The notes under the pieces: generated by a model
Seen by the model: the letters and a program-made list of their open reading frames with translations, nothing else
Told to the model about the DNA's origin: nothing
Database searches by the model: none
From: an uncultured delta proteobacterium
GTDB taxonomy: Bacteria > Myxococcota > Myxococcia > Myxococcales > Myxococcaceae
DNA length: 64,000 nt
Assembly (NCBI GenBank): GCA_963771175.1
Contig: CAVYSY010000046.1
Location: 229,475 to 293,474, forward strand
Direction: 5' to 3'
Program-made: the position numbers and the translations under genes
Shown here: in pieces, positions 7,112 to 64,000 of the stretch
How positions within the stretch are numbered: the first letter of the stretch is position 1
Layout of the letters: each line of letters begins with the position of its first letter

Positions 7112-7172
7112 GCGCCCTCTCCGAGGGGGAGACCCCCAACCCCCCGGGCTCCAAAAGGATTCAGGTACCCAG

Positions 7173-8262
7173 ATGAGCGTTTCCGAGCGCGACATCCTCG
7201 CGGCGATGTCGAAGGTGATGGACCCCGAGCTGCACGTCGATCTGGTGAAGGCCGGGATGGTGAAGGACGTCCGCGTCGAGGGCGACAAGGCGAAGCTCAA
7301 GATCGAGCTGACCACGCCGGCCTGCCCGATGAAGGGGAAGATCCAGGCGGACGCCGAGGCGGCGCTCAAGCAGGTGCCGGGGCTGAAGACGTTCGACATC
7401 GAGTGGGGCGCGCAGGTGCGCTCGGCGCCGGCGGGCGTGGGCGGGCCGCAGGGGCAGGCGATCCTCCCGCAGGTGAAGAACGTGATCCTGGTCGGCGCCG
7501 GCAAGGGCGGCGTGGGCAAGAGCACCGTGTCGGTGAACCTGGCCGCGGCGCTGGCGCGCGAGGGCGCGAAGGTGGGCCTGCTGGACGCGGACTTCTACGG
7601 CCCCTCGATGCCGATGATGACGGGCATCACCGAGAAGCCGGTGAGCCCGGACGGCAAGACGCTGCTGCCGCTGGAGAAGCACGGGCTGAAGGTGATGTCG
7701 ATCGGCTTCCTGGTGGAGGCGGACCAGGCGCTCATCTGGCGCGGGCCCATGCTCCACGGCGCGCTGATGCAGCTCATGCGCGACGTGCACTGGGGCGAGC
7801 TGGACTACCTCGTCCTGGATCTGCCGCCGGGCACCGGCGACGTGGCCCTGTCGCTGTCGCAGTCGGTGCGGGCGGCGGGCGCGGTGCTGGTGACGACGCC
7901 GCAGGACGTGGCGCTGGCGGACGTGGTGCGCGCCAAGCAGATGTTCGACAAGGTCCACATCCCGGTGCTGGGCATCGTGGAGAACATGAGCCAGTTCGTG
8001 CTGCCCGCACTGCTCGAAGGCCACGCCCATCTTCCACCACGGCGGCGGGCGCAAGGCGGCCGAGATGTTCGGCATCCCCTTCCTGGGGGAGATTCCGCTC
8101 GAGCTGAAGATCCGCGAGCGCGGTGACGCGGGCGTGCCGGTGGTGCTGAGCCGCGCCGGACAGCCCCGAGGCCCAGGCCTTCATGGGGATGGCGCGCAAC
8201 ATCGCGGGCCGCGTCTCCACGGAGAACATGCGGGTGGCGGTGAAGCTGCCGGTGGTAGGCAG
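7173..8262 (+). CDS. mrp: Mrp/NBP35/ApbC Fe-S cluster carrier ATPase; frameshifts near 8000 and 8150, exact stop uncertain
   Basis: N-terminal DUF59-like DPEL…TTPACPM; GKGGVGKST P-loop; DADFYGPS; WRGPM; DLPPGTGD; GIVENMS. Confidence 0.9.
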
Positions 8263-8290
8263 CCGTCCCGCCACGAACCCCGAGGACCCC

Positions 8291-8750
8291 ATGGCGCCCC
8301 CAGACGACGATTTCGATCCGCTGCTCGGTGACGAGCCGGGGCGGCGAGTCGCCGCGCGGGCTTCGTGCCGGAGTTCGTGCGCAAGGTGGCGGTGGCGGGA
8401 CTGGGCGCGCTCTTCATGACCGAGGAGGGCATCCGCTCGCTCGCCGGCCAGCTCAAGCTGCCCAAGGAGGTGCTCGGCTACATCCTCTCGCAGGCGGAGA
8501 AGACGAAGGACGAGGTGGGCCGGGTCGTCTCCGAGGAGCTGCGGCGCTTCCTCCAGTCGGAGAAGCTGCGCGACGAGTTGCTCAAGCTGGTGTCGGGGAT
8601 GACGATGGAGGTGAAGGCGCAGATCCGCCTCGTGCCTCACGAGAAAGCGGCCGACGAGGAGTCGGACGAGACGCCTGCTCGGCCAAGGTGGTCGTCACCG
8701 AGCTGAACACGCGCCGCGGCGGCAAGAAGGCCTCCGGGAAGAAGGAGTAA
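8291..8750 (+). CDS. Conserved hypothetical helical protein (phasin-like N-terminal motif); frameshifted
   Basis: RBS GAGG before ATG 8291; VRKVAVAGLGALFMTEEGIR motif; pieces in three frames. Confidence 0.6.
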
Positions 8751-8754
8751 CGGC

Positions 8755-9159
8755 GTGGAGGGCGAGCCGCGGCGGGACTGGCGCAAACACCCCCTGATGA
8801 AGCGGCTGCCGCTGCTGCTGCTGGTCGCGCTGGGCCTGTGGCTTTGGAAGGGCTCGGACGTGCCCGAGCGCGAGCTGGTGTGGCGGCTGGACGGCCCGGG
8901 GTGGAGCGACATCCGGGCCCTCGAGTTCCAGGTGAAGGCCGAGGACGGCGAGCTGCTCAAGCGCGAGGAGCACCGCTTCCAGGGGAGCGCTCCGGGCTCC
9001 ATCACCCAGAAAATGGCCCTGCCCTCGGGGAGTTACCGAGGTGTGGGTCTTCGCCCGGGGGGCCGAGGGGCCCTCGCGGCCCCCCCAGTGGAGCGCCTGA
9101 CACTCGGGGACGAGGACGTGCGCGTCGAGCGCGAACTGCGGGTGCCGGCGAGTCGTTGA
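8755..9159 (+). CDS. Hypothetical membrane-anchored protein
   Basis: N-terminal hydrophobic helix (LPLLLLVALGLWLW); fills the gap before hbd. Confidence 0.6.
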   Translation: MEGEPRRDWRKHPLMKRLPLLLLVALGLWLWKGSDVPERELVWRLDGPGWSDIRALEFQVKAEDGELLKREEHRFQGSAPGSITQKMALPSGSYRGVGLRPGGRGALAAPPVERLTLGDEDVRVERELRVPASR

Positions 9160-9184
9160 CCGGTGGGGGGGCCAGGGCTATAGC
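9156..9184 (+). promoter_or_regulatory. Putative sigma70-type promoter of the hbd operon
   Basis: TTGACC-N17-TATAGC about 40 bp before ATG 9226. Confidence 0.5.
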
Positions 9185-9225
9185 GCGCCCGGTTCCTCGT
9201 TTACCGAGCAAGGGGTCTGGAACCC

Positions 9226-10075
9226 ATGGCAACGGAGCACATCGTCGTCGTCGGGGCAGGGCAGATGGGGCGGGCATCGCGCAGGTGGCGCTGCAGGCTG
9301 GCCTGCGCGTCACGCTGGTGGACGTCTCGAAGGAGGGTCTCGCCAAGGGCGCCGAGCGCATCAAGGGCGGCCTGAAGAAGCTGGTGGAGAAGGGCAAGCT
9401 GGACGCGGCCCGGCGCGAGGCGGCGAACGCCAACCTCGCCACCTCCACCAGCGCCACCGAGGTGAAGGACGTGGACTTCGCCATCGAGGCGGTGACGGAG
9501 AACGAGGAGCTCAAGCGCCGCATCTTCGTGGAGCTGGACAGCGTGGTGAAGCCCGGGCGGCATCCTGGCCACCAACACCTCGTCCATCCCCATCACCCGC
9601 ATCGCCGCGGCCACGAAGCGCCCCGAGAACGTCATCGGCATGCACTTCATGAACCCGGTGCCGGTGATGCAGCTGGTGGAGCTGATCCGCGGCGCGGCGA
9701 CGTCGGACGCGACCTACGCAGACCACGCGCGCGCTCGCCGAGAAGATGGGCAAGACCACGGTGGTGTCGAAGGACTACCCGGGCTTCATCGTCAACCGCA
9801 TCCTGATCCCGATGCTCAACGAGGCCTGCTTCGCGCTGATGGAGGGCCTGGGGACCGCCGAGGACATCGACACCGCGATGAAGCTGGGCACCAACCAGCC
9901 CATGGGCCCGCTGCAGCTCGCGGACTTCATCGGCCTGGACACGGTGCTCTACATCGCCGAGGTGCTGCACAAGGGCCTGGGCGACGACAAGTACCGCCCG
10001 TGCCCGCTGCTGCGCCAGTACGTGGACGCCGGCTGGTACGGCAAGAAGAGCGGCCGCGGCTTCTACAAGTACTAA
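9226..10075 (+). CDS. hbd: 3-hydroxybutyryl-CoA dehydrogenase; frameshifted
   Basis: VVGAGQMG Rossmann start; [52 protein letters not shown]. Confidence 0.9.
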
Positions 10076-10100
10076 CCCCGAGCACCCCGAGGAGCCTCAC

Positions 10101-10884
10101 ATGGCCTACGAGAACATCCGGCTGGAGACCGAGGACGCGATCGCCATCCTCACCATCGATCGCCCCAAGGCGCTCAACGCGCTCAACAGCAAGACGCTGC
10201 AGGAGCTGGAGTCGGCGCTGGACTCGCTGCCCACCACGGCTGCGCGCGCTCATCGTCACCGGCGGCGGCGAGAAGGCCTTCGTCGCCGGCGCGGACATCG
10301 CCGAGATGGCGTCGCATCACCTCGGCGCAGGCGCGCGAGTTCGCCGCCGCTGGGCCACCGCACGCTTCGCCACGCTCGAGCAGCTGCCCATCCCGACCAT
10401 CGCCGCGGTGAACGGCTTCGCGCTCGGCGGCGGCTGCGAGCTGGCCCTCGCCTGCGATCTCATCTACGCCTCGGAGAAGGCGAAGCTCGGCCTGCCCGAG
10501 GTGAGCCTCGGGCGTCATCCCCGGCTTCGGCGGCACGCAGCGGCTCACCCGCGCTGGTGGGCAAGATGCGCGCGAAGGAGCTCATCTTCACCGGCGAGCG
10601 CCTGGACGCGGCCAAGGCCAAGGAGATTGGCCTGGTGCTCGACGTGCTCCCGGCGGACAAGCTGCTGGCCGCACTGCAAGGCGGTGGCGGCGAAGATCCT
10701 CAAGAACGGCCCGCTGGCGATCTCCCAGGCCAAGCGGGTCATCGAGTTCGGCGCGGACCAGGATCTCCGGGCGGCCAACGAGCTGGAGCGCCAGGGCTTC
10801 GCGGTGCTCTTCGGCTCCGAGGACCAGAAGGAGGGCATGAAGGCCTTCCTGGAGAAGCGTCCGGCGGGCTTCACCGGCAAGTAG
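10101..10884 (+). CDS. crt: Enoyl-CoA hydratase (crotonase); frameshifted
   Basis: [47 protein letters not shown]. Confidence 0.9.
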
Positions 10885-11026
10885 GCCGGGGCAGGAGAGG
10901 GCCGGCGAGCGCCTGTCCGCTAATGGGCGCGGCAACCGACGCTTGCCCGCCCCTCCTGCAATCGCTGTTCCCGGGGCCTCCGCCCCGTACTATGTACCTC
11001 TGCGCCCTTACCCCACCAGGAGTGCC

Positions 11027-12172
<1,146 letters not shown>

Positions 12173-12185
12173 GGAGTCGACGCAT

Positions 12186-12666
12186 ATGAAGCGTTCCCTG
12201 ATCGCGGTGGTGGTGCTTCTCGGGTCGGGCCTGGCGTTCGCGCAGGGCTCGGCCAAGGGGTCGGCGGGCAAGGAGACAGGGTCCGAGGCGACCGTCCCCG
12301 CGCAGGAGAAGAAGAAGGCGGAGCCGGCCCGGCCCCAGCCGCCGAACGTGTCGCAGATGCCCTTCACCCCGGACTCCATCCGCGAGGTGATGACGTACTA
12401 CTCGCGCGACATCCAGGAGTGCTACGAGGAGATCCTCGCGACGAAGGGCAGCAAGGTGGAGGAGGGCCGCATCATGACGTCCTTCACCATCACGCCGGAC
12501 GGCTTCGTGAGGAACGCCAAGGTGGTCAAGGCGGGCACGACTGCTGAAGAACGCACGGCTGAACGAGTGCGTGGTGAACGTGCTCTCCAGCATCACGTTC
12601 CCGCAGCCGCCGGACGGGCGCGAGTACCCCATCGAGTATCCGTTCAACCTCAAGGCCATCAAGTAG
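12186..12666 (+). CDS. Secreted protein with AgmX/PglI C-terminal (TonB_C-like) domain; frameshift near 12540
   Basis: Signal peptide; DIQECYEE…EGRIMTSFTITPDGFV…ECVVNVLSSITFPQP…IEYPFNL pattern. Confidence 0.7.
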
Positions 12667-12677
12667 GACGCCCCCCC

Positions 12678-13829
12678 GTGAACCTCGAGCTCACCGAGAC
12701 GCAGACGCTCATCCGCGACACCGCGCGCAAGTTCGCGCGCGAGCGGATGGCGCCCCAGGCGCGCAGATTCGACAAGCGAGGAGATCTTCCCCACGGAGCT
12801 CTTCAAGGAGCTGGCCGCCCTGGGGCTGCATGGGGGTGAACATCCCCGCCCAGTACGGCGGCGCCGAGGCGGGCGCGGTCTCCTACGCCCTGGCGATGAT
12901 GGAGATGGCGGCCGCGTGCGCCTCCACCTCGGTGGCCATGGCGGTCACGAACATGTGCGCCGAGCTCATCCACAAGTTCGGCACCGAGGCCCAGCGCGAG
13001 AAGTACGTGACGCGGCTCACCTCGGGCGAGGCGGTGGTGGGCGCGTTCGCGCTCTCCGAGCCGCACGCGGGCTCGGATCCGCGCGCCATGCGCACCACGG
13101 CGGTGCGCCGCGGGGACAAGTGGGTGCTCAACGGCAGCAAGCAGTGGATCACCTCCGGCGCCTACGCGGGCGTGATGGTGGTGTGGGCGCAGCACGGGCG
13201 GGCAGGGCAGCAAGGGCATCTCCGCCTTCATCGTCGAGGGCGGGACGACGGGCCTCCTCGTCGGCAAGCACGAGGACAAGATGGGCCTGCGCGGCTCCAA
13301 CACCGTGGCGCTCACCTTCGAGGACTGCGAGATCCCCGCGGAGAACCTCCTGGGCAAGGAGGGCGACGGCTTCAAGCTGGCGATGATCGCGCTGGACGGC
13401 GGCCGCATCGGCATCGCCTCGCAGGCGTGCGGCGTGGCGCGGGCGGCGCTCGAGGCCTCCGTCCGGTACTCGAAGGACCGCAAGGCCTTCGGTCAGGCCA
13501 TCGCCGACTTCCAGGGGCTGCGCTTCATGCTCGCCAACATGAAGCACCGAGCTCCAGCGCGGCCGAGCTGCTGACGTTCCGGGCCGCGAAGCTCAAGGAG
13601 GAGGGCAAGCCGTTCACCCGCGAGGCCTCGATGGCGAAGCTCTATCGCCAGCGAGATGTCCAACCGCGCGGTGGACAAGGCGGTGCAGATCCACGGCGGC
13701 TACGGCTACATCGACGAGTTCCCCGTGGAGCGCTACTTCCGCGACGCCCGGGTGCAGACCATCTACGAGGGCACCAGCGAGGTGCAGCGGATGGTGATCG
13801 CCCGCGAGACGTTCAAGCTGCTGGACTGA
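12678..13829 (+). CDS. Acyl-CoA dehydrogenase; frameshifted
   Basis: [57 protein letters not shown]. Confidence 0.9.
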
Positions 13830-14051
13830 GCGCCCGCCCCCTCGGGTGCCTGGGCAGCAGCCACGGGACTCCGCGCGTTTCGTGCGCCGAGGCAATGGCG
13901 CGGGGATTCATCGGGCATCACCTTTGAATCCTCGGAGGGTAGGGGAGTGTGGGTGCTTTCCTGCCTGCCGGACGAGGGCTCTAGAGGACCGGGGGGTGTC
14001 CGATCCGCCAGTGAGCATTATCAGGACTATGAACAAGTACCGCGTGCTCGC

Positions 14052-24999: not shown

Positions 25000-26387
25000 A
25001 TGAAGCGCTACTTCATCCACACCTTCGGCTGCCAGATGAACGTCAACGACTCGCTCCGCATGAGCGAGGTGCTCGGCGAGCTGGCATACCGGCCCACGCC
25101 GGCCCCGGAGGAGGCGGACCTCATCATCCTCAACACCTGCTCCATCCGCGAGAAGGCCGAGGACAAGATGCTCTCCGCCCTGGGCCGCTACCGCACGGTG
25201 AAGCTCGCCCGCGGCACGCTGATCGGCGTGGGCGGGTGCGTGGCGCAGCAGGAGAAGGACAAGCTCCTCAAGAAGGTGCCCTACCTGGACTTCGTCTTCG
25301 GCCCGGACACCATCGCCAAGCTGCCGGAGATCATCGGCCGCGTGCAGGGCGAGCGCGAGCGCGTGGTGGAGACCGCCTGGGTGGACTCGCGAGGAGTACG
25401 TCTTCCCGCGCGCCGACCCCGAGACGAGCCGCGGCAAGGTGACCGAGTTCGTCACGGTGATGAAGGGCTGCGACAACGTCTGCGCCTTCTGCGTGGTGCC
25501 GCACACCCGCGGCCGCGAGGTGAGCCGGGCCTTCCCGGAGGTGCTCGCCGAGGTGGCGGACCTGGCCAAGGTGGGCGTGCGCGAGGTGACGCTCATCGGG
25601 CAGAACGTGAACTCGTACCGGGGCGGCATCAGCTTCGCGCAGTTGCTGCTGCGCACCGCCGAGGTGCCGGGCATCGAGCGCGTGCGCTTCACCACCAGCC
25701 ACCCGCACGACCTGTCGGACGAGCTGATCGAGGCCTTCCGCGTCGCAGCCGAAGATCATGCCGCACTTCCACCTGCCGGTGCAGAGCGGCTCGGACCCGG
25801 TGCTCAAGCGGATGCGGCGCGACTACACCGTGGCCGAGTACCTGGAGCGCCTGGAGAAGCTGCGCGCGGCGCGTCCGGACATCGCGGTCACCACGGACAT
25901 CATCGTGGGCTTCCCCGGCGAGACGGAGGAGGACTTCGCGCTCACGCTGGAGCTCACCGAGAAGGTCCGTTACGAGAACCAGTTCTCGTTCATCTACGCG
26001 CCCCGCCCGAAGACGGGCGCGGCGCTCAAGGAGAAGGAGTGGGGCCTGGTGCCGCACGAGGTGAAGATCGAGCGGCTGGAGCGCCTGCAGAAGATCCAGC
26101 GGCGCATCAGCGGCGAGCTCATGGCCGCGGAGCAGGTGGGCACGGAGGTGGAGGTGCTGGTGGAGGGCCCCTCGCGCTACAACCCGCTCAAGCGCTTCGG
26201 CCGCACGCCGGAGAACCGCACGGTGAACTTCGACGGCGACGCGCCGGCCGGAGCCTTCGTGAAGGTGAAGGTGGAGAGCGCCACGCCGAACCAGCTCGCC
26301 GGCAAGCAGACGGCGGTGCTGAGCCTCCCGACGGTGATGCCCGCCGCCGAGGCCCCCCAGCCCGAGCTCTCGTGCGTCGTCGCCTGA
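25000..26387 (+). CDS. miaB: tRNA-2-methylthio-N6-isopentenyladenosine synthase; frameshifted
   Basis: [30 protein letters not shown] radical-SAM motif; [16 protein letters not shown]-terminal TRAM domain. Confidence 0.95.
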
Positions 26388-26409
26388 GCCTGTCCTCCCA
26401 GGAGCACCC

Positions 26410-26927
26410 ATGGCCCTGAGACGTTTCAAAGACCACTCCCCGCGCGTCCACCCGAGCTGCTTCGTCGAGGACTCGGCGCAGGTCATCGGGGACGTGGAGC
26501 TGGGGGAGGACTCCTCGGTGTGGTTCAACTCGGTGCTGCGGGGGGACGTGAACCCCATCCGCATCGGCCGGAGGACCAACATCCAGGACCTCTCGATGAT
26601 CCACGTCACCAGCGAACGCTACGCCACCTTCATCGGGGACGACGTGACGGTGGGGCACCACGTGGTGCTGCACGGGTGCACCAGGTGGGCAACCGCGTGC
26701 TGGTGGGCATGGGCGCCATCGTCATGGACGGCGTGGAGATCGGCGACGACTGCATCATCGGCGCCGGCACGCTGCTGACGCCGGGGACGAAGGTGCCCCC
26801 GGGCTCGCTGGTGGTGGGTTCCCCTGGAAAGGTGAAGCGGCCCCTCACCGACGAGGAGCGCTCCTTCCTCCTCGAGTCCGCGAAGCACTACGTCCGCACG
26901 GCCGCCGACCATCGCGCCAGCCGTTAA
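26410..26927 (+). CDS. Gamma carbonic anhydrase family (YrdA-like) protein; frameshift near 26680
   Basis: [30 protein letters not shown] hexapeptide repeats. Confidence 0.88.
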
Positions 26928-33462: not shown

Positions 33463-33488
33463 CGCGCCCCACTCTCTTGGAGACCCCC

Positions 33489-35044
33489 GTGGACATCCAC
33501 GCTGAGAAGATCCTGATTCTCGATTTCGGGAGCCAGTACACGCAGCTCATCGCTCGCCGCGTGCGCGAGCTCGGGGTGTATTGCGAGATCCACCGCCCCG
33601 ACCTGTCGGCGGAGGAGATCCGCCGCTTCGCCCCCCGGGGCATCATCCTCTCGGGAGGGCCGGCCTCGGTGGAGGCGCCGGGCTCGCCGCGGTGTGATCC
33701 CTACGTCTTCGACGCGGGGCTGCCGGTGCTGGGCATCTGCTACGGCCTGCAACTGCTCTCCAAGCTGCTGGGCGGGCGAGTGGACCGCTCGGCACACCGC
33801 GAGTACGGCTCCGCCGAGGTGGAGGTGCTGTCGCCGCGCGGACCCCTGGCGGCCTTCCACCTGGGGGACCGGGTGAAGGTGTGGATGAGCCACGGAGACC
33901 GGGTGGAGGCGCTGCCGCCGGACTTCGAGGCCATCGGCCGCAGCGGCAACTCGCCCTTCGCGGCGACGGCGCACAAGAGCAAGCCCATCTACGGCCTGCA
34001 GTTCCACCCCGAGGTGGTGCACACCCCGCATGGGCAAGGAGATGCTGCGCGCCTTCCTGTTCACCGACTGCAAGGTGAGCGGGAGCTGGACGATGAAGGG
34101 CTTCATCCAGGAGGCCGAGGAGGCGATCCGCCGGCAGGTGGGCGAGCACGGCCGGGTCATCTGCGGCCTGTCGGGCGGCGTGGACAGCTCGGTGGCGGCG
34201 CTGCTGCTGCACCGGGCGCATCGGCGCCCGGCTGCAGTGCATCTTCGTGGACAACGGCCTCTTGCGGCAGGACGAGCGCGCGCAGGTGGAGGCGCTCTTC
34301 GTGGACCGGTTCCACGTGCCGCTGAAGACGGTGGATGCGCGGGCGCGCTTCCTGGCGAAGCTCGCCGGCGTCACGGATCCGGAGAAGAAGCGGAAGATCA
34401 TCGGCGGCGAGTTCATCGCGGTGTTCGAGGAGGCCGCGCGGGACGTGCAGGGCGCGGAGTTCCTGGCGCAGGGCACGCTGTACCCGGACGTGATCGAGTC
34501 CGTCTCGTACAAGGGCCCGTCGGTGACCATCAAGAGCCACCACAACGTGGGCGGGCTGCCGGAGAAGATGAACCTCAAGCTGGTGGAGCCGCTGCGCGAG
34601 CTCTTCAAGGACGAGGTCCGCGCGCTGGGCCGCGAGCTGGGGCTGCCGGACGAGATGGTGTCGCGGCAGCCGTTCCCGGGGCCGGGCCTGGCGATCCGGG
34701 TGCTGGGGGACATCACCGAGGAGCGGCTGGAGCTGGTGCGCCGCGCGGATGCGATCGTCCAGGAGGAGATCCGGGACGCGGGGCTGTACAAGGAGCTGTG
34801 GCAGGCCTTCGCGGTGCTGCTGCCGGTGCAGAGCGTGGGCGTGATGGGTGACGAGCGCACCTACGAGTCCACCTGCGTGCTGCGCGCGGTGACGAGCGTG
34901 GACGGCATGACGGCGGACTGGGCGCGGCTGCCGTACGACGTGATCGAGCGCATCTCCTCGCGCATCACCAACGAGGTGCGCGGCATCAACCGCGTCGTCT
35001 ACGACATCTCCTCCAAGCCGCCGGCGACGATCGAGTGGGAGTAG
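33489..35044 (+). CDS. guaA: GMP synthase (glutamine-hydrolysing); frameshifted
   Basis: [60 protein letters not shown]. Confidence 0.97.
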
Positions 35045-35151: not shown

Positions 35152-37244
35152 TTACATCCCCGGGCGGGCCTTCACGGAGGGCACGGAGCCGGGGCGCAGC
35201 TCCTCGAGGACGCGGTCGGCCTTGTAGACCTTCTTGAGCGCCTCGATGAGGGCCTCGCTGTGGACGGAGACGGCGCGGTTGACGCTCTCGTCGAAGCCGT
35301 AGTCACCGCCGAGCGACTGGATGTTGCCGTCGAACACGAGGCCGACGATCTCCGCGTCCTTGTTGATGACGGGCGAGCCCGAGTTGCCGCCGATGATGTC
35401 GTTGGTGGTGACGAAGTTCATCGGGGTGCTGGCCGTCAGGTCCTTCTGGGCGGCGAGCCAGCTCTTGGGCAGGGCGAACGGATCCTCTCCGGTGTGGCGC
35501 GCGAAGGTGCCTCCCATGGCGGTGATGGGCTCCACCTGCTTGCCGTCCTCCATGTAGCCCTTCACGGAGCCGTACGAGAGGCGCAGGGTGAAGGTGGCGT
35601 CCGGGTAGATGCCGGTGCCGTAGACCTCGAACTTCGCCTGGGCGACCAGCTCGCTGTTCTTGCGGACGACGGCCTCGACCTGTTCCTCGTAGATCTTACG
35701 GATGGCGCGAGCGTCCGGGTCCACCAGGGCGGCGAACTCGATCATCGGATCCTTGGAGGCCTCGATGGCCTGTCTTGCCACCGGAGAAGAGCTGCCTCGC
35801 GGACCTTGAGGTCGGTCAGCTTGGTGCCCTTGACCACGCGGGAGGCCAGCGCCGCCGGAGACTCCTTGCCGAGCACCTTCTTCACGAACGGGTGATCCGG
35901 CCCCAGTTCCTCGCGCATCTTGGTGAGCGAGAAGGTGAGCTGGGCGATCTCCAGCTCGGGGTAGATGGGGGCCTTGCTCAGGACCTGGTTCTTGAGGACG
36001 GGCAGGTTGGCCTCGTTGAACTCGCGGAGACGCTCGGTGTTCGGCTTGGTGAGCTCCTCGGCGGCGCGCACCAGGGTCCGGGCCATGCTGGAGCAGCTGC
36101 TGCCTGCCGAAGGCGCCCTCGATGTACTCGTAGTCCTTGCGGATGTTGCGGTAGCTGTCCTGGGCGCGGGCGATCTCGTCCCAGGCGGCGCCGTACTTCG
36201 CCTTCATCTTCGGATCCGCGTCCACCTTCTTCCGCAGCTCCTGCTCGGCGGCGACCTTCTGGGCGAAGAAGGCCTTGTCGACGAGCGCCTCGTGCCGGCC
36301 CTTGATCGCCTTGAAGCTGTTCTCCACGCCGAACAGCGGTTGTTGGAGATGCGCTTCTGCTCGGCGCCGCGGTTCTGGAACTCGGTGATCATCCCGCGGA
36401 GCTCGGACAGATCGAAGAGCTGCTTGGGCAGACCCACGTCGCGGATGGTACTCGAGCTGCGCCACGGTGAGGCCGCGCGAGGTCCTTCCCGGGTGGCCGG
36501 AGACGAAGGTGAGCTCGCCTTCCTTGGCGCCCTTGTCGGACCACTTGAAGTAGTTGGTCGGTCTTCGCGGGCTTGCCGTCCTTGTAGACGCGCACGAAGG
36601 TCACGTCGAGGTCGTACCGGGGGAACTTGAAGTTGTCCGGATCACCGCCGAAGAAGGCGATGGCGTGCTCGGGGGCGAACACGAGGCGGACGTCCTGGAA
36701 GCGCTGGTACTTGTAGAGGTTGTACTTGCCGCCCTGGTACAGGGTCACCACCTCGCAGCGAGATGTCGGTGCCGGTGGCGCAGTCCTTCTCGATGCTTGG
36801 CCATCTCGGCCTTGAGCGTGTCGGCGTACGGCTTGCCGGTGAGGCCCTTGGTGGCGGCGTTGCAGCTGCGCGGTGACGTCGGTGAGCTCGACGAGCTGGT
36901 TGACGCTCCATGGCCGGGCACTGGAGCTCCTCGGCCTGGGTCTTGGCGTAGAAGCCGTTGGCGATGAAGTCCTTCTTGGCGGTGGAGAGCTGCTCGATGC
37001 AGCCACGCGCACAGTGGTGATTCGTCATCACCAGGCCGTCCGGGGAGACGAAGCTCGAGCCGAGCAGCCGCCCGCGATGCGCACCGAGGCCAGAGCGCAC
37101 GTTGTCGAGCCACTCCTGAGTGGGCTCGAAGCCGTACTTCTCCTTCACCTTGGCGGCGGGGAAGTTGTTGTACGTCCACATGCCCTCGTCGGCGAGGGCG
37201 GGGGCGGCGCCGACCAGGGAGGCTAGGATGAGCAGACGCTTCAT
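35152..37244 (-). CDS. S46 family dipeptidyl peptidase; multiple frameshifts
   Basis: ALADEGMW; SFVSPDGLVMTNHHC; FFGGDPDNF; YPDATFTLRLSYG; DIIGGNSGSPV; GLVFDGN. Confidence 0.9.
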
Positions 37245-37516
37245 TACGGGAGTCCTTTCCGGGATCCGGAGGTGCCGCGGGTTGTCCCGGGAACGGCCGG
37301 TCCGGTCAAGCAGGGGAGAAATGGGGAGAAAAATCCCGGCGCCTGAACCCATGAGCGGGACTTTGATTTCCGATCGACCGCACGAACGGACGCAGTCTCC
37401 GCAAGCGAGCGGGATGACGCCGCTCATCGGAATGGAGGCCCGGAGGGCGACGGGGAGGAGCCGAAAACCAGCGCCCGGACCCGTGGTCCGAGGACCCCTT
37501 GGGCGGCCCTATGCTG

Positions 37517-57217: not shown

Positions 57218-57265
57218 ACAAGGAACAGCTCGACAACACCGTTGAGCAGGAGAGAGGAACTCGCC

Positions 57266-59052
57266 ATGCGCACTCGCCGTCTCGTTTCCATCCTCCCCCT
57301 CATGCTCCTGGGCAGTGCCTGCGGCGTCGACATGGACGTCGACACTCAGGCCACCGGGACTCAGGACAGCAACCTGGCCGCCGCCGCCGAAGGGCGTGGC
57401 CTCGCAGCGCTCAAGTCGCAGCGGCCGGACTTCCTCCGCGGCGCGGGTGACCTCTCCTCCAAGCGCGCGCTGGTCGATCGAGCGCGGCAAGTCGCACGAG
57501 CGCCTGTCGCAGTCCTTCCGGGGCGTGCCCGTCTTCGGCGCCGAGGCGATCGTCCACCTGAACGATGACGGCTCCATCGCGTCCATCACCGACCGTCTGG
57601 CCCGCGACCTCAAGGTCGAGACCACGCCCAAGCTCCGCGCGGACGAGGCCACGCAGATCGCCATCGCCCACGTGGGCGGCGCGAGCGCCCTGGTGGGCAC
57701 GCCGAAGGCGGACCTGCAGATCCTCCCCGAGAGCACTGGCGCGCCGCCTGACCTACCGGGTGCAGCTCGAGGCCGTCACGGCCAAGGGCGAGCCCTCGAT
57801 GCCGAACCTCTTCATCGACGCGCAGACCGGCGAGCTCGTGGAGTCAGTTCGACAACCTGAAGACGAGCCGCAACCGCAAGACCTACACGGCCAGCACCCG
57901 CACGAGCGCTGCCCGGCACGCTGGTGCGCACCGAGGGCCAGGGCGCCTCGGGCGACGCCGTGCTGGACGCGGCCCACGACAACGCGGGCATCACGTACGA
58001 CTTCTACTTCAGCCGGTTCGGCCGCGACAGCTACAACGGCGCCGGCGCCACCCTCACCTCGACCGTCCACTACAGCAGGAACTACGTGAACGCGTACTGG
58101 AACGGGACGCAGATGGTGTACGGCGACGGCGACGGCTCGCAGTCCGGCCCGCTGACGGTGCTCGACGTGGTGGGCCATGAGCTCACCCACGCCGTGACCG
58201 ACACCTCCTCGGACCTCATCTACTCCAACGAGTCGGGCGCCCTGAACGAGGCCATGTCCGACGTCTTCGGCGCCTCCATCGAGGCCTACCGGGACGGCGC
58301 GGTCAGCGCCAACACCTGGAAGATCGGCGAGGAGTGCTGGACGCCGGCCACCGCGGGCGACGCGCTGCGCTACATGAACGACCCGGCCCTCGCTGGCGAC
58401 TACGACTACTACCCGACGCGCTACACGGGCACCTCCGACAACGGCGGCGTGCACTGGAACTCGGGTATCGCCAACCTGGCGTTCAAGCTGATGGTCACCG
58501 GCGGCACGCACCCGCGCGGCAAGACGAGCAACGTGGTGCCCGCGCTCGACGCGAACCCGTACCTCAGCATCGAGAAGGGCGCGGCCATCTTCTACCGCGC
58601 CAACACGGTGTACCTGACCCCGAGCAGCACCTTCGCGGACGCGCGCAACGCCACGGCGCAGGCCGCCGCCGACCTGTACGGCTCGGCCGCCGCCACCGCG
58701 GTCAACGAGGCCTGGACCGCGGTGGGCGTGGGCGCGCCCCCGATCTGGACGGCGTTCGACACCAAGACCAACCTCTCGGGCGCCAAGAGCAGCAGCACGA
58801 ACTTCAGCTACGTCACGCCGACCGGCGCGACGGCGATGAAGTTCGAGATGTCCGGCGGCACGGGTGACGCCGACCTGTACGTGAAGTTCGGCAGCGCGCC
58901 CACCACCACCAGCTACGACTGCCGTCCGCGGGCGCCGCCGGCAACGCCGAGAGCTGCACCTTCAACGCGGCGCAGCAGGGCACGTACTACGTCATGATCA
59001 GCGGCTACACGGCCTACTCCGGCCTCACCTCAAGGTGAGCTCCGCGCAGTAA
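57266..59052 (+). CDS. M4 (thermolysin-like) metallopeptidase with FTP/PepSY propeptide and C-terminal PPC domain; frameshifted
   Basis: Lipobox-like GSAC; NAYWNGTQMVYGDG; HELTH; NESGALNEAMSD; GGVHWNSG; SGGTGDADLYVKFG…YDCRP. Confidence 0.92.
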
Positions 59053-59231: not shown

Positions 59232-61215
59232 ATGAAGACGCCCTCGGTTTTTCTCTCGTTCGTGCTGGTGGCACTGGCCGCGTGCCAGGGCCATACGGAC
59301 ATGGGCGTGGGCCCGCGCCTGGGGCTCGCGATGGAGTCGCCGGGCCTGGGCGCGCTGGCCTCGGCACACTCCGGGGCCGAGGCGCTGGAGGGGACGAGCG
59401 AGGTGCGCATCCAGGCGTGGGCGGCGGCGCGCCGGCTGAAGCACACGGGCGCGTGGCTGGCGCTCGGGCTGCGCGTGGAGGGCGAGCGGGTGCAGTTGCT
59501 CGCCGTACGCGCTCACGAGGGGACGGGCGCCGAGGCGGGCCCGGTGGAGACGGAGGACTTCCGCCGCCTGGTGGACTGGGCGCTGTACCGCTACGTGCGG
59601 GGCCAGCGGGGCGACGTGGTGGTGACGCTGCGTCGCGGTGAGGGCATGTGGCGCGAGGAGGTGGAGTCCACGGGCCCGGTGCTCTCGGCCGCCCTGCCCC
59701 AGGCGCCCTACGAGGCCTTCCTTCGCCACCAGGGGGAGGCGTTGCAAGCCCCCGGCCTCTCCGAGGCGGCGCGCCGCGAGGGCCTGTCGGCCCTCAAGAA
59801 GCTGGAGGGCCAGCTGTGGCTGCAACCCGAGGAGGCGCTGACGACGGCGCCCTCGCCCCTGGCGCGGTACGCGGCGCTGCTGGAGGAGGAGCGGCAGCGC
59901 GAGGTGCGCTGGCGGGCGGTGCAGCGCAAGCTGGCCGAGTACGAGACGTGGGGCAGAAAGCTGCTGGACACCTACGCCCCGCCCCCTCGCCGTCTGGCGC
60001 CGGGCTACCTGCTGAGCGAGTCGCCCCTGCGCGAGCACTCGCTGCGCGCCCTGGGCAATGCCACGCTGGCCTGGGCCTACTCGCATACGGAGGACCCGGA
60101 TTTCCTCCGGCGCACTCCCGAGGAGGTGGCCCTCTATCTGCTGGCGAGTCGCTCGGCCCTGGCCAGCGCGGTGCAACTGGGGCGACTGGCTCCGGTGCAA
60201 TTGGATTACAACGAGGCCTTCGACCCGGAGACCTACCCCGCCGAGGACCTGGTGCTGGAGCTGCTGGTGGGCCTGACACCGGGCGCTGGCGAGGTGACGG
60301 ACGCGCAGGCGGCCGTCACCGGCTACAGCCTCACCGGCCACGCCCTCACTCGCACCGAGCGCGTGGTGTGTGCACTGGGCGTGCTGCTGCCCTTCGTCAC
60401 CGGCGCCGTGCTGATGAAGGCCGGCGAGGAGGGGGCCGCGCGGCTGGCGTTGCTCACCGGCCGGGGCCTGGACGAGGTGGAGGTGCTCTCGCGCGTGGCC
60501 TCGCACCTGTCTCCCGCGGACGCCAAGGAGATTGAGCGCCTGCTGGCGGCGGCCTCCCGGGGCCACTCCTTCACCGAGGAGGAGTTGCACTTCCTCGAGC
60601 GGGTGGCTCGCGGCCTGGAGGCCCCGTTGCGCGAGGCGGCCGGGGCCCTGAGGGCGAGCCAGAAGGTGCCGCTGCTGGGCGTGCGCACCCTGCCGGACGG
60701 CAGCCGGCTGCTGCCCGGCACCCGTGCCCACAAGGCCCAGCGCTGGGTGGACTACCAGTTCCGCCACCCGGAGAAGTACCGCCGCTTCTCCTTCCAGCCG
60801 GACCCGGACTGGGAGCGCATGTACGAGACCATCCTGAAGAACCGGCCGGCGGGCAACGCCTTCGAGGACTCCATCCTCCAGGCCAACCAGTACGAGCGCA
60901 ACACCGCGATGATGATGCCGCCACCGGGCAGCGGCGCCCGGGGCTTCATCCCCGACTCGGTGAAGGGCAACCCGGCGGAGCTGGTTTGGGGGCAGCCCTA
61001 CCCCTTCGTCGAGTCCAAGGCCCGCAAGGAACTCTCCCTCTCCGGCAACCTCAAGGCGATGATTGACTACGTGGACAAATACGGCGGTCACCTCGAACTG
61101 TGGGTCCGCTCCGCCAAGCATCCCGATGGGGCTACACATCTGTCCGGATCCACTCCTGAATGAATTGACCCGTCTGTCAAGCAGGGCAAGGCAATCATTC
61201 AGACGTTACCCATGA
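59232..61215 (+). CDS. Putative polymorphic lipoprotein toxin (lipobox, pre-toxin TG domain, PD-(D/E)xK nuclease-like tip); copy 1
   Basis: Lipobox LAAC; VGLTPGAGEVTDAQAAVTGYSLTGHALTRTER (PT-TG pattern); GNAFE…FIPDSV…FVESK…LSLSGNL; ORF stops at 61163, but a +1 shift near 61149 gives …GPLLNELTRL…RYP* ending at 61215. Confidence 0.75.
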
Positions 61216-62034
61216 TTCCCATCTCCGACATGCCAATCAAGATATTCGAAACGAATTTCGATCTTCCACCCGGAACGACCATCTTGCGCAGTCGTGGGGG
61301 AGTTTCTCGACCTCGTGCTTCGCGAGTTCCGATGGTTCGAACCCAGGCGCTATGGGTGCTCGCCTTGGATAAGACCCATCGATCCGAGCCGCATCGATCT
61401 GGGTGCGCTCGTCGCCTACTACGAAGAGCATGGAACCTGTGCGTCGCCGCCCGCACCGATCGGGACTTCATCTCGATTCTATCCCATCACGACCGGCGCT
61501 CCGCCCTACACAGGCGCAATCACCTGGATGACGTCTGCGAGCCCGGCCTCGAAAGCGTCCTGGCGTGCGGCTCATGCAAAGCAGGTGCTCGAGGTGATGC
61601 GCCTCTTTCAAGTCCCGCTGGCCCAGGCCGGATTGAAGACGGATCTTCATGCCAAGCAAGGCGACTCGTGCGCAAGAGGATTCCCCAGGAAGGAGGAAAG
61701 GAGTTCACCTACTCAGAAACAGGTCGTCACCGTGCGCGACTACAGCGAAGGACTGGCGGGCCTCTTCTGGCGCAACTTCTACGGTCCACCCTTCGTCCGT
61801 ATGTTCGGCGAGCGGCTCGACGCACTACCCCCCGAGTGCCGCCAGACGCTCGGAGAGGAACTCGTCCTCGTCCAGCCCTACGAGCTGCCCACCGAGGCGG
61901 GCACCGAGGCGGGCATGGCGCGAGAGCGCGAGCTCATCTCCCTGCTCGGCCCCGAGTGCTTCTACGACCACGAGCACCACACCCTCCCCACCCGCCGGCC
62001 CGTCCTGGACTCCCTCGGCCAGCCTCTTCACTGA
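61212..62034 (+). CDS. Putative cognate immunity protein; frameshifted near the 5' end
   Basis: ATGA overlap with the toxin stop; no signal peptide; about 270 aa with GLAGLFWRNFYGPPFVRMFG motif. Confidence 0.6.
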
Positions 62035-62120
62035 GCGTTTTCGCGCTCACGATGCTCGCAGCCAGGAGCCGTGATGCGGTTGGATGGTGGAAGGCCGCCC
62101 CTCGCATCCCCGTGCCGCAC

Positions 62121-64000
62121 ATGAAGACGCCCTCGGTATTGCTCTCGTTCGTGCTGGTGGCACTGGTCGCATGCCAGGGCCATACGGACATGGGCGTGGG
62201 CCCGCGCCTGGGGCTCGCGATGGAGTCGCCGGGCCTGGGCGCGCTGGCCTCGGCACACTCCGGGGCCGAGGTGCTGGAGGGGACGAGCGAGGTGCGCATC
62301 CAGGCGTGGGCGGCGGCGCGCCGGCTGAAGCACACGGGTGCATGGCTGGCGCTCGGGCTGCGCGTGGAGGGCGAGCGGGTGCAGTTGCTCGCCGTACGCG
62401 CTCACGAGGGGACGGGCGCCGAGGCGGGCCCGGTGGAGACGGAGGACTTCCGCCGCCTGGTGGGATGGGCGCTGCACCGCGACGTGCGGGGCCAGCGGGG
62501 CGACGTGGTGGTGACGCTGCGTCGCGGTGAGGGCATGTGGCGCGAGGAGGTGGAGTCCACGGGCCCGGTGCTCTCGGCCACCCTGCCCCAGGCGCCCTAC
62601 GAGGCCTTCCTTCGCCACCAGGGGGAGGTATTACGTGTCCCCGGCCTCTCCGAGGCGGCGCGCCGCGAGGGCCTGTCGGCCCTCAAGAAGCTGGAGGGCC
62701 AGCTGCGCTGCAACCCGAGGAGGCGCTGAAGACGGAGCCCTCGCCCCTGGCGCGCTACGCGGCGCTGCTGGAGGAGGAGCGGCAGCGCGAGGTGCGCTGG
62801 CGGGCGGTGCAGCGCAAGCTGGCCGAGTACGAGACGTGGGGCAGAAAGCTGCTGGACACCTACGCCCCGCCCCCTCGCCGTCTGGCGCCGGGCTACCTGC
62901 TGAGCGAGTCGCCCCTGCGCGAGCACTCGCTGCGCGCCCTGGGCAATGCCACGCTGGCCTGGGCCTACTCGCATACGGAGGACCCGGATTTCCTCCGGCG
63001 CACTCCCGAGGAGGTGGCCCTCTATCTGCTGGCGAGTCGCTCGGCCCTGGCCAGCGCGGTGCAACTGGGGCGACTGGCTCCGGTGCAATTGGATTACAAC
63101 GAGGCCTTCGACCCGGACACCTTCCCCGCCGAGGACCTGGTGCTGGAACTGCTGGTGGGCCTGACACCGGGCGCAGGCGAGGTGACGGACGCGCAGGCGG
63201 CCGTCACCGGCTACAGCCTCACCGGCCACGCCCTCACTCGCGCCGAGCGCGTGGTGTGTGCACTGGGCGTGCTGCTGCCCTTCGTCACCGGCGCCGTGCT
63301 GATGAAGGCCGGCGAGGAGGGGGCCGCGCGGCTGGCCTTGCTCACCGGCCGGGGCCTGGACGAGGTGGAGGTGCTCTCGCGCGTGGCCTCGCACCTGTCT
63401 CCATCGGACGCCAAGGAGATTGAGCGCCTGCTGGCGGCGGCCTCCCGGGGCCACTCCTTCACCGAGGAGGAGTTCGCACTTCCTCGAGCGGGTGGCTCGC
63501 GGCCTGGAGGCCCCGTTGCGCGAGGCGGCCGGGGCCCTGAGGGCGAGCCAGAAGGTGCCGCTGCTGGGCGTGCGCACCCTGCCGGACGGCAGCCGGCTGC
63601 TGCCCGGCTCCCGTGCCCACAAGGCCCAGCGCTGGGTGGAGCTACCAGTTCCGCCACCCGGAGAAGTACCGCCGCTTCTCCTTCCAGCCGGACGCGGACT
63701 GGGAGCGCATGTACGAGACCGTCCTGAAGAACCGGCCAGCGGGCAACGCCTTCGAGGACTCCATCCTCCAGGCCAACCAGTACGAGCGCAACACCGTGAT
63801 GATGATGCCGCCACGGGCAGCGGCGCCCAGGGCTTCATCCCCGACTCGGTGAAGAGCGACCCAGCGGAGCTGGTTTGGGGGCAGCCCTACCCCTTCGTCG
63901 AGTCCAAGGCCCGCAGGAACTCTCCCTCTCCGGCAACCTCGAGGCGATGATTGACTACGTGGACAAATACGGCGGTCACCTCGAACTGTGGGTCCGCTCC
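62121..64000 (+). CDS. Second near-identical lipoprotein toxin copy (runs off the window; several indels)
   Basis: MKTPSVLLSFVLVALVACQGH… aligns end to end with 59232 onward, with scattered substitutions. Confidence 0.75.

What the first reader, a model, noticed from the sequence alone, without database searches (positions are those of the whole stretch)
59232..64000. Tandem array of lipoprotein nuclease-toxin/immunity modules (candidate SitAI-like kin-discrimination family)
Seen: a ~660-aa ORF with a lipobox (LAAC-QG), a long conserved middle region, a pre-toxin TG pattern and a C-terminal E…PD…ExK motif (GNAFE…FIPDSV…FVESK). It is directly followed by an overlapping (ATGA) cytoplasmic ORF, then a second toxin copy. 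Established: PT-TG domains precede toxin tips in polymorphic toxins. Myxobacterial SitA lipoprotein toxins are passed by TraAB outer-membrane exchange and neutralised by a downstream SitI. Inference: this is a contact-transferred DNase toxin array. I do not recognise its N-terminal escort region as a described SitA family, and no T6SS, RHS or CDI carrier is visible, so it may be an undescribed family.
Basis: partly seen in the sequence, partly recalled or inferred. Interest (0 to 1): 0.85.

Follow-up and report, generated by a model that had tools for sequence, protein, structure and literature searches.

The report
Lipoprotein nuclease toxin–immunity tandem array
A soil myxobacterium carries two tandem copies of an outer-membrane lipoprotein DNase-like toxin with its own antidote gene, a family seemingly confined to Archangium and relatives that in some strains is fused to a copy of the cell-to-cell membrane-exchange protein TraB.

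Summary
The anatomy is real. Toxin copy 1 (59232-61163 as an open frame, about 660 aa once frame changes near its end are allowed for) has a lipobox (Cys18), a Pfam PT-TG domain (residues 342-399) and a C-terminal domain with a family-invariant E…PD…ExK signature. An antidote-like gene follows (61212-62034), then copy 2 (62121 to the window end, 97.5% identical). The antidote gene, copy 2 and the tail of copy 1 are frame-broken. So are many housekeeping genes in the window, so I read these breaks as assembly errors, not decay.

The toxin and its partner gene are adjacent in all 14 related loci that extend past the toxin, and arrays recur. Unlike classic polymorphic toxins, the C-terminal toxin is constant and the N-terminal address varies: lipoprotein, TraB-like outer-membrane protein, or eCIS_core.

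Named relatives come only from Archangium, Vitiosangium, Hyalangium and one Myxococcaceae MAG. The family is not SitA6 (direct test). It is absent from the published SitA1/2 and SitA3 lists, and it lacks the AHH toxin reported for SitA4. SitA5 and SitA7 could not be tested.

Best reading: a SitA-like, probably undescribed, outer-membrane-exchange toxin family. Delivery is inferred, not shown.

The parts
59232..61215 (+). Toxin copy 1. Open frame 59232-61163 (643 aa). The probable true end is TGA 61213-61215, after frame changes between about 61146 and 61205.
   Evidence: ORF list and sequence. Homologues of 87-88% identity extend about 22 aa further. The tail of the L005 homologue matches pieces in two window frames.
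59232..59285 (+). Type II signal peptide with lipobox L-A-A-C (Cys18). +2 is Gln and +7 is Met.
   Evidence: Translation. A lipobox-like motif occurs in 59 of 108 relatives; many of the rest are N-terminally truncated calls or TraB-like fusions. None has Lys at +2. The outer-membrane sorting rule is as quoted in PMC5562445.
59286..59906 (+). N-terminal region (residues 19 to about 225). This is the most variable part of the family. In relatives it is replaced by shorter leaders, a TraB-like protein or eCIS_core.
   Evidence: Many relatives align only from about q222-230 onward. Fusions are shown. The ESM Atlas gave no usable hit for residues 19-340.
59907..60671 (+). Conserved helical pre-toxin region. 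It includes the PT-TG domain (residues 342-399, nt 60255-60428) and a linker.
   Evidence: Pfam PF14449. Invariant columns run from R226 onward. The PT-TG part alone matches many other proteins.
60672..61215 (+). C-terminal toxin domain with a restriction-endonuclease-like (PD-(D/E)xK) signature: E545 (60864-60866), D575 (60954-60956), E594 (61011-61013), K596 (61017-61019).
   Evidence: Invariant D, E, K. AlphaFold2 model of the 87%-identical L001 domain, pLDDT 86.7. Tox-REase-7 is weak in 2 of 32 members. 19 of 30 named Atlas hits are Tox-REase-7. The domain occurs at the C-terminus of unrelated carriers.
61212..62034 (+). Candidate immunity gene (about 274 aa, no signal peptide). Its ATG overlaps the toxin's probable TGA. 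It is frame-broken in this sequence at about 61272, 61435 and 61479.
   Evidence: tblastx and ORF comparison with 14 loci. 340 homologues, all unnamed or 'hypothetical'. No Pfam or NCBIfam family. The fold search points to TsiV-type immunity proteins. GC falls to 0.61-0.65 here.
62121..64000 (+). Toxin copy 2, cut by the window end. It differs from copy 1 by 24 non-synonymous and 12 synonymous codon changes and by five single-base indels.
   Evidence: blastn; codon-wise comparison; PT-TG hit in the middle fragment.

Best explanation
This is a tandem array of toxin-immunity modules of a SitA-like lipoprotein toxin family.

Proposed mechanism:
- The toxin is exported, lipidated at Cys18 and parked in the inner leaflet of the outer membrane (inferred from the lipobox and the sorting rule).
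- Its constant cargo is a helical pre-toxin region, a PT-TG domain and a PD-(D/E)xK (restriction-endonuclease-fold) nuclease related to Tox-REase-7. This is supported by motif, model, weak profile matches and the domain's occurrence on other toxin carriers.
- On contact with a cell carrying a compatible TraA/TraB receptor, the lipoprotein passes over with other outer-membrane material and reaches the cytoplasm, where it cuts nucleic acid (inferred by analogy with SitA).
- Sibling cells are protected by the cytoplasmic product of the gene immediately downstream (inferred from strict linkage and a TsiV-like predicted fold).

The family appears confined to Archangium and near relatives. It is probably not one of the six described SitA families. 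Its variability lies in the N-terminal address rather than in the toxin.
For: Signal and sorting:
- Lipobox with Gln at +2. The rule comes from PMC5562445 (passages and supplement 1).
- PT-TG is above Pfam's cut-off.

Toxin domain:
- E…PD…ExK with D, E and K invariant in 35 sequences.
- Confident model (pLDDT 86.7) with helix-strands-helix-strand order around these residues.
- The PDB fold-search rows listed include EndoMS, Hjc, Bax1 and MspJI nucleases.
- Tox-REase-7 hits in 2 of 32 members, best E 0.0018.
- 19 of 30 named Atlas neighbours are Tox-REase-7.
- The same domain ends proteins with eCIS_core heads in 13 of 35 scanned.

Immunity gene:
- The partner gene sits directly downstream in 14 of 14 loci.
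- Its model's hits include PA0821/TsiV (7drg_B, E 6e-3, probability 1.00), which PMC9635880 calls an immunity protein of a PD-(D/E)xK effector.
- Toxin-domain and immunity divergence are correlated (r 0.49; 3 of 5000 permutations as high). Linkage alone could give this result.

Link to membrane exchange:
- 9 of 9 long or odd relatives and the L012 ORF match NCBIfam TraB (E down to 1e-180).
- traAB orthologues are reported in Archangium gephyra and Cystobacter (now Archangium) violaceus (PMC6372800, passages).

Genomic setting:
- Modules sit at several unrelated chromosomal sites, with lower GC3 than their neighbours.
Against: - No experiment supports toxicity, immunity or transfer.
- No PDB fold match reaches E 0.001 for the toxin domain, and no PDB sequence match was found.
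- ORF1 itself has no Tox-REase Pfam hit.
- The Atlas hits share 154 of 256 features, below the 170 typical of true family members.
- Toxin domains are 75-85% identical between alleles. Immunity may therefore cross-protect, and discrimination may be coarse.
- In this window the immunity gene, copy 2 and the tail of copy 1 are frame-broken.
- No traA or traB lies in the window.
- PMC5562445 argues that TraB is wall-anchored and holds TraA back from transfer. A TraB-like fusion therefore need not travel between cells.
- Distant relatives carry eCIS_core, so the cargo is not specific to membrane exchange.
Confidence: 0.6

Rival explanations
1. It is a member of an already described SitA family. 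SitA7 is the most likely candidate (reported as non-modular with a predicted DNase), with SitA5 the alternative. On this reading the biology is as above but nothing is new.
For: PMC8546572 (passages) states that SitA4, SitA6 and SitA7 carry one toxin family each and that SitA7 has a predicted DNase. This matches the constant nuclease seen here. Neither SitA5 nor SitA7 sequences could be obtained.
Against: - The SitA4-7 alleles listed in that paper's strain table are all from Myxococcus fulvus.
- No relative naming Myxococcus, Corallococcus or Stigmatella appeared among 108 and 35 hits of two searches. Both searches scored only the 8000 best word-sharing candidates.
- NCBI names these proteins only 'pre-toxin TG domain-containing' or 'hypothetical'. 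No NCBIfam model matches them.
- The same library does recognise SitA6 and SitI6 on pMF1.
Confidence: 0.25
2. It is a lipoprotein toxin used by a route other than TraAB exchange. Examples are release on outer-membrane vesicles, surface exposure for predation on other species, or loading into a contractile injection system.
For: The same cargo is joined to eCIS_core heads in 13 of 35 distant relatives scanned. Other relatives with the pre-toxin region have no signal peptide at all. No tra gene is nearby in the window or in 15 of 16 loci.
Against: The lipoprotein form and the TraB-like fusions are found, where named, only in genera reported to have traAB. A cognate immunity gene implies that the toxin reaches cells of the same kind. 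SitA genes are likewise unlinked to traAB.
Confidence: 0.15
3. The array is a decaying remnant. On this reading copy 2, the immunity gene and the end of copy 1 are true pseudogenes.
For: There are five indels in copy 2, about three frame changes in the immunity gene and up to three in the last 70 nt of copy 1. Several of these are not in homopolymer runs.
Against: Core genes in the same window, such as GMP synthase, MiaB-like, FadB-like and the acyl-CoA dehydrogenases, are split between frames in the same way. That is not expected in a living myxobacterium. Intact versions exist in every related genome examined.
Confidence: 0.1

Closest known systems
SitA/SitI lipoprotein toxin-immunity systems of Myxococcus (families SitA1/2, 3, 4, 5, 6, 7)
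   Same: Outer-membrane-type lipobox. An N-terminal region with no known domain. A C-terminal nuclease. The immunity gene lies immediately downstream and overlaps. There are many copies per genome. Hosts are myxobacteria that possess traAB. Like SitA4, 6 and 7, the toxin domain is of a single family.
   Different: No sequence match to SitA6/SitI6. The family is absent from the published SitA1/2 and SitA3 homologue lists of the same strains. The toxin is restriction-endonuclease-like, not AHH as reported for SitA4 and SitA6. It contains a PT-TG domain, and no held paper contained both 'SitA' and 'PT-TG' or 'pre-toxin TG'. Named members come only from Archangium, Vitiosangium, Hyalangium and one Myxococcaceae MAG. 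TraA-dependent transfer is untested.
PT-TG polymorphic toxins (Pfam PF14449) with Tox-REase C-termini, e.g. the Tox-REase-7 DNase of Acinetobacter baumannii CdiA2 (listed in PMC9990079)
   Same: A pre-toxin TG domain precedes a PD-(D/E)xK nuclease tip, and a cognate immunity gene lies downstream.
   Different: Here the tip is constant and the N-terminal delivery part varies. The match to Tox-REase-7 is only marginal. The carrier is a lipoprotein, not CdiA, Rhs or a T6SS or T7SS substrate.
TraB, the outer-membrane partner of TraA in outer-membrane exchange (NCBIfam NF033763)
   Same: The heads of the fused relatives match the TraB model over positions 3-474/515 of 522, including the OmpA-like domain (E about 1e-180).
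   Different: Scores of about 600 bits lie under the 700-bit cut-off. The L012 gene has no traA upstream, whereas traA and traB overlapped in an operon in all cases examined in PMC6372800. It carries a 640-residue toxin at its C-terminus. The window's own genes are not fused.
TseV/TsiV and TseT/TsiT: T6SS PD-(D/E)xK effectors with their immunity proteins (Pseudomonas aeruginosa)
   Same: A nuclease of the same superfamily. The predicted fold of the downstream protein resembles PA0821/TsiV (7drg_B), and more weakly a chain of the PA3907-PA3908 complex.
   Different: No sequence similarity is detectable. The model has only moderate confidence (pLDDT 72.4). The delivery system is different.

Membership tests
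SitA (outer-membrane-exchange lipoprotein toxins, generic) | Type II signal peptide with lipobox and no Lys at +2 (outer-membrane sorting) | tested here: met
   LAAC|Q in ORF1. None of the 59 lipobox-bearing relatives has Lys at +2.
SitA (generic) | C-terminal nuclease toxin domain | tested here: inconclusive
   Invariant PD…ExK motif, a confident model and weak Tox-REase-7 signals. No fold match reaches E 0.001 and there is no activity data.
SitA (generic) | Cognate immunity gene immediately downstream in the same operon | tested here: met
   A homologous signal-less gene follows the toxin in 14 of 14 loci. ATGA overlap at 61212-61215. Protection itself is untested.
SitA (generic) | Found only in genomes that have traAB | not tested
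   Whole genomes could not be scanned. traAB orthologues are reported for A. gephyra, C. violaceus and Hyalangium in PMC6372800.
SitA (generic) | TraA-dependent cell-to-cell transfer and killing | not testable with these tools
   This needs co-culture assays.
SitA1/2 and SitA3 | N-terminal escort domain homologous to SitA1 (residues 1-507) or SitA3 (residues 1-441) | tested here: not met
   Indirect test. The BLAST lists of PMC5562445 supplement 1 for C. violaceus Cb vi76 (17 entries) and A. gephyra (8 entries) hold no lipobox like this family's. The Cb vi76 member (L007) has MSAC|RSHSDGG. Reference sequences were not compared directly.
SitA4 | AHH nuclease toxin, as reported in PMC8546572 | tested here: not met
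   No AHH (PF14412) hit in ORF1 or relatives at E up to 1. The escort domain was not compared.
SitA6 / SitI6 | Match to NCBIfam TIGR02269 (SitA6) and TIGR02264 (SitI6) | tested here: not met
   No hit at E up to 1. The pMF1 control genes hit both models. BLASTP against them is not significant.
SitA5 and SitA7 | Escort domain homologous to the family's reference alleles | not testable with these tools
   The defining paper and its sequences are not held. No named relative was found.
PT-TG (PF14449) | Score above Pfam's gathering threshold | tested here: met
   29.7 bits against a cut-off of 23.5, residues 342-399. Copy 2 scores 28.5 bits.
Tox-REase-7 (PF15649) | Significant match to the Pfam model | tested here: inconclusive
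   ORF1 and the L005 domain give no hit. 2 of 32 aligned members hit, best E 0.0018. Atlas neighbours are mostly Tox-REase-7 but with low shared features.
TraB (NF033763), for the fused relatives only | Score above the curated 700-bit cut-off, and a position in a traA-traB operon | tested here: not met
   Scores are 124-601 bits, and about 600 for full-length forms. No traA lies upstream in L012. They are TraB-like paralogues, not the orthologue.

The most novel reading that the evidence does not exclude
A portable cargo (helical pre-toxin region, PT-TG and a restriction-endonuclease-fold nuclease, with a dedicated immunity protein) has been plugged onto three different addresses: an outer-membrane lipoprotein anchor, a complete TraB-like outer-membrane protein, and an eCIS_core head.

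On this reading the lipoprotein form in this window is a seventh, Archangiaceae-specific SitA-type family. The TraB-like fusions would mean that a paralogue of the membrane-exchange machinery itself serves as a toxin carrier. That would place a nuclease at the very junction where two cells fuse their outer membranes.
Probability: 0.35. Interest if true: 0.8.

Novelty: new variant of a known kind. Interest (0 to 1): 0.62.

Why it matters
SitA toxins are the best-understood case of bacterial kin discrimination by shared membrane material, and all six described families were tested with Myxococcus alleles. A further family restricted to Archangium and its neighbours would show that the toxin repertoire is lineage-specific and larger than catalogued.

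The TraB-like::toxin fusions are the more striking point. They are independent, sequence-level evidence tying this cargo to the exchange machinery. They offer a handle on an open question: how toxins meet the TraAB junction and then leave the outer membrane.

The reversed polymorphism (constant toxin, swappable address) also differs from the usual logic of polymorphic toxins.

Tried and rejected
- Complex prediction of the L005 toxin domain with its cognate downstream protein gave no verdict (runs 0.00, 0.81, 0.00). I draw nothing from it.
- A PDB sequence search with the toxin-domain profile found nothing (best E 1.4).
- The ESM Atlas gave no usable neighbour for the N-terminal 19-340 region.
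- NCBIfam named none of 42 distant relatives.
- A tblastn search of 72,556 plasmids found no relative.
- The cluster look-up that would have given organisms for distant relatives was switched off. The taxa of P0109-P0116 and of P0126 therefore stay unknown. P0126 is a lipoprotein with a different N-terminal half and the same toxin.
- The paper defining SitA4-7 (PMC6900543 / 10.1073/pnas.1912556116) and PMC7490427 are not held. The supplement of PMC12390754 had no family lists. Those supplements may bear directly on the novelty claim.
- A conserved upstream accessory gene (SitB-like) or mobile-element genes: flanks of 13 loci are ordinary and mutually different housekeeping genes.
- Synteny with the window's upstream region: none in 16 loci.
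- The idea that the C-terminus is polymorphic is rejected.


Full report
**What is in the window**

On the + strand an ORF starts at ATG 59232 and is open to 61163 (643 aa). It begins with a lipoprotein signal whose lipobox is L-A-A-C (Cys18), followed by Gln at +2.

Pfam finds a pre-toxin TG domain at residues 342-399 (E 6.5e-7, 29.7 bits against a cut-off of 23.5). NCBIfam finds nothing at E up to 1.

The C-terminal part carries GNAFE (E545), FIPD (D575) and VESK (E594, K596). A second copy starts at ATG 62121 and runs off the window at 64000.

The two copies are 97.5% identical over 1899 aligned columns, with 40 mismatches. Codon by codon they differ by 12 synonymous and 24 non-synonymous changes, plus five single-base indels at codons 196, 452, 507, 565 and 599. 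The repeat period is 2889 nt. Similarity begins only about 16 nt before each ATG.

**State of the sequence**

Homologues of 87-88% identity are 660-683 aa. They align to residue about 640 of ORF1 and then run about 22 residues further, ending in …YP. The window holds pieces matching that tail in two reading frames between about 61146 and 61215, ending at a TGA (61213-61215) that overlaps an ATG (61212). Neither holds for the raw sequence without frame changes.

The downstream gene (61212-62034) matches intact homologues in one frame over most of its length. It starts in another frame (shift near 61272) and has a short excursion between about 61435 and 61479.

Breaks of this kind are not special to the locus. 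Among the 86 window ORFs I scanned with Pfam, the following genes each have their domains spread over overlapping ORFs in different frames:
- an S49 peptidase
- a FadB-like gene
- two acyl-CoA dehydrogenases
- a MiaB-like gene
- GMP synthase
- an S46 peptidase
- the M4 peptidase just upstream of the toxin

I therefore read the indels as assembly errors. I do not call copy 2 or the immunity gene pseudogenes, but only read-level data can settle this.

**The family**

A word-indexed search of 5.8 billion proteins gave 108 relatives. Every hit that carries an organism name is from Archangium, Vitiosangium (2), Hyalangium (2) or a Myxococcaceae MAG (1).

104 of the 108 align through residue about 635-640 of ORF1, so they share the same C-terminal domain. 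Three of the other four end at the end of their own sequence, and two of those are labelled partial by their source. The family is therefore not modular at its C-terminus.

What varies is the N-terminus. Many relatives align only from about residue 222-230 onward and have short unrelated leaders. 59 of 108 have a recognisable lipobox, none with Lys at +2.

An exhaustive profile search of 1.84 billion cluster representatives found 240 proteins at E up to 0.001 and 52 at E up to 1e-30. It resolved the protein into separable pieces:
- a variable head
- a helical region (profile about 135-335)
- PT-TG (about 336-465), which is also found alone in many other proteins
- the toxin domain (about 480-654), which is also found alone at the C-terminus of otherwise different proteins

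Of 35 such proteins scanned, 13 carry an eCIS_core domain (PF13699) near the N-terminus. A second search seeded with eight divergent members again returned only Archangium names (35 hits). Both word-indexed searches scored only the 8000 best candidates, so distant Myxococcus relatives are not excluded.

**The toxin domain**

- In a 35-sequence alignment that includes distant members, D of PD, W-G, Y, and E and K of ExK are invariant.
- An AlphaFold2 model of the intact L001 domain (87% identical to the window's over the whole protein; the window's own lacks the tail) has mean pLDDT 86.7 and pTM 0.80. A helix bears the first acidic residue, strands bear PD and ExK, and a helix-strand-helix-strand follows.
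- Foldseek against the PDB gave no match at E up to 0.001. The rows listed include EndoMS/NucS, Hjc resolvases, Bax1 and MspJI, all PD-(D/E)xK nucleases, at E 0.07-0.4.
- A profile search of PDB sequences found nothing.
- Pfam Tox-REase-7 appears in 2 of 32 aligned members (best E 0.0018).
- 19 of the 30 nearest named ESM Atlas clusters are Tox-REase-7 (score 0.93, 154 of 256 shared features). By the tool's own calibration this is a lead, not proof.

Together with its use as the tip of eCIS_core proteins, I consider a restriction-endonuclease-fold toxin well supported. DNase activity remains likely but unproven. A review table lists a Tox-REase-7 CdiA tip as a DNase (PMC9990079, passages).

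**The downstream gene**

- One scan of genome contigs returned 16 related loci. In the 14 that extend beyond the toxin, tblastx finds the homologue of the window's downstream region directly after the toxin.
- In the 13 loci that hold the whole region, an ORF ends in the same conserved C-terminal motif.
- The protein (258-295 aa) has no signal peptide and no Pfam or NCBIfam family. It has 340 relatives, all unnamed or 'hypothetical'.
- It is less conserved than the toxin domain. Mean pairwise identity is 0.68 against 0.79 in 45 comparisons of 10 cognate pairs. The two divergences are correlated (r 0.49; 3 of 5000 permutations as high), which linkage alone could also produce.
- Its AlphaFold2 model is of moderate confidence (pLDDT 72.4).
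- The best PDB fold matches are an uncharacterised Burkholderia protein (4rho, E 9.9e-4) and PA0821 (7drg_B, E 6e-3, probability 1.00). A chain of the PA3907-PA3908 complex is at rank 50.
- PMC9635880 (passages) calls PA0821 an immunity protein and relates it to TsiV and TsiT, which neutralise PD-(D/E)xK effectors.

**Arrays and genomic setting**

Archangium minus (L002) has three toxin-immunity modules in a row, and a MAG (L005) has two. L010 has an immunity-like fragment upstream of its toxin.

The modules lie between ordinary and mutually different housekeeping genes. Some insertion sites are shared between species: L008/L013, L011/L015, and L004/L006/L009. No integrase, transposase or SitB-like gene is adjacent. 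None of the 16 loci shares the window's upstream sequence.

Toxin genes have GC3 of 0.81-0.88 against 0.90-0.97 for many neighbours. In the window, GC falls to 0.61-0.65 over the immunity gene.

**The TraB-like fusions**

Nine relatives stood out by length or N-terminus: P0027, P0034, P0042, P0047, P0048, P0049, P0051, P0055 and P0097. All nine match the NCBIfam model 'outer membrane exchange protein TraB' (E 3.7e-36 to 1.6e-180). The full-length forms cover the barrel and the OmpA-like domain and score about 600 bits, under the 700-bit cut-off.

Locus L012 shows this as one uninterrupted 1126-codon ORF (5585-8965), followed by the immunity gene. There is no traA upstream. Instead, two genes lie on the other strand, with cysJI beyond them.

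The join falls where the lipobox would be, and a Cys is retained there. This suggests read-through from an upstream traB-like gene into a lipoprotein toxin gene. P0053 keeps only a TraB-like signal peptide and first residues before the toxin.

PMC6372800 reports that traA and traB overlapped in an operon in all cases examined, and lists orthologues in A. gephyra, C. violaceus and Hyalangium (passages). The fused genes are therefore paralogues.

Two full-text searches for such fusions returned only general outer-membrane-exchange papers. I found no description in the held library, which lacks many subscription papers.

**Comparison with SitA**

PMC8546572 (abstract and passages) defines six families by non-homologous N-terminal escort domains. 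It reports that SitA4, 6 and 7 carry a single toxin family, that the tested alleles of SitA4 and SitA6 contain AHH nucleases and that SitA7 contains a 'predicted DNase'. Its strain table lists alleles of families 4-7 from M. fulvus.

| Family | Test | Result |
|---|---|---|
| SitA6/SitI6 | NCBIfam recognises them on plasmid pMF1 (TIGR02269, TIGR02264). The present proteins do not match and BLASTP is not significant. | Excluded directly |
| SitA1/2 and SitA3 | The homologue lists in supplement 1 of PMC5562445 (read whole) include C. violaceus Cb vi76 and A. gephyra. They hold no lipobox like this family's. Cb vi76 does encode a member (L007). | Excluded indirectly |
| SitA4 | Its reported toxin type (AHH) is absent here. 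| Excluded by toxin type only |
| SitA5 and SitA7 | Reference sequences not available. | Not tested |

The generic SitA features are met as far as sequence can show: an outer-membrane lipobox, a nuclease tip, an adjacent immunity gene, and host genera with traAB.

**Verdict**

The toxin-immunity reading is well supported computationally. Delivery by outer-membrane exchange is a reasoned inference, strengthened by the TraB-like fusions.

The family is probably, not certainly, outside the six described SitA families. I rate it a new variant of a known kind, with interest about 0.6.

Noticed in passing
Whole window, e.g. 1971-3724, 8838-11030, 10943-13927, 25000-26419, 33477-35044, 35152-37427, 57242-58997: Many housekeeping genes have their Pfam domains split over overlapping ORFs in different frames: S49 peptidase, FadB-like, acyl-CoA dehydrogenases, MiaB-like, GMP synthase, S46 and M4 peptidases. 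The assembly seems rich in single-base indel errors, which affects every ORF-based reading of this window.
   Followed up: partly
L012:5585-8965 (MAG Archangium sp.); proteins P0027, P0034, P0042, P0047, P0048, P0049, P0051, P0055, P0097: Natural fusions of a TraB-like outer-membrane protein (barrel plus OmpA-like domain) to this toxin, followed by the immunity gene and not preceded by traA. I found no description of such fusions in two literature searches.
   Followed up: partly
Proteins P0112, P0114, P0119, P0127, P0133, P0135, P0144, P0156, P0176, P0180, P0182, P0183, P0186: The same toxin domain, and in some cases the whole pre-toxin/PT-TG/toxin cassette, is attached to eCIS_core (PF13699) heads. 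Several also carry Poly_export domains. Their organisms are unknown.
   Followed up: partly
Protein P0126 (523 aa): A lipoprotein with an unrelated N-terminal 260 residues, but the same linker and toxin domain as this family. It could belong to another lipoprotein toxin family that shares the tip. Its organism could not be looked up.
   Followed up: no
L002 (Archangium minus, 1335-9797); L005 (4411-10481): There are three toxin-immunity modules in tandem in A. minus and two in a MAG. Tandem arrays are therefore a recurring trait of the family, not a peculiarity of this window.
   Followed up: yes
window 60500-62000: GC content drops to 0.61-0.65 over the end of the toxin and the immunity gene, against about 0.68-0.73 around it. 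In related loci the immunity genes have the lowest GC3 of their neighbourhood.
   Followed up: partly
Proteins P0139, P0196, P0237: Database proteins that join a toxin tip to the start of the immunity protein, or an immunity-like start to the next toxin's middle region. These are probably gene calls running across tandem modules or frame errors.
   Followed up: no
window 57242-58997 (+): A thermolysin-type M4 peptidase gene (FTP propeptide, catalytic and helical domains) lies just upstream of toxin copy 1, split over four frames. It is not conserved next to the toxin in any of the 16 related loci.
   Followed up: partly
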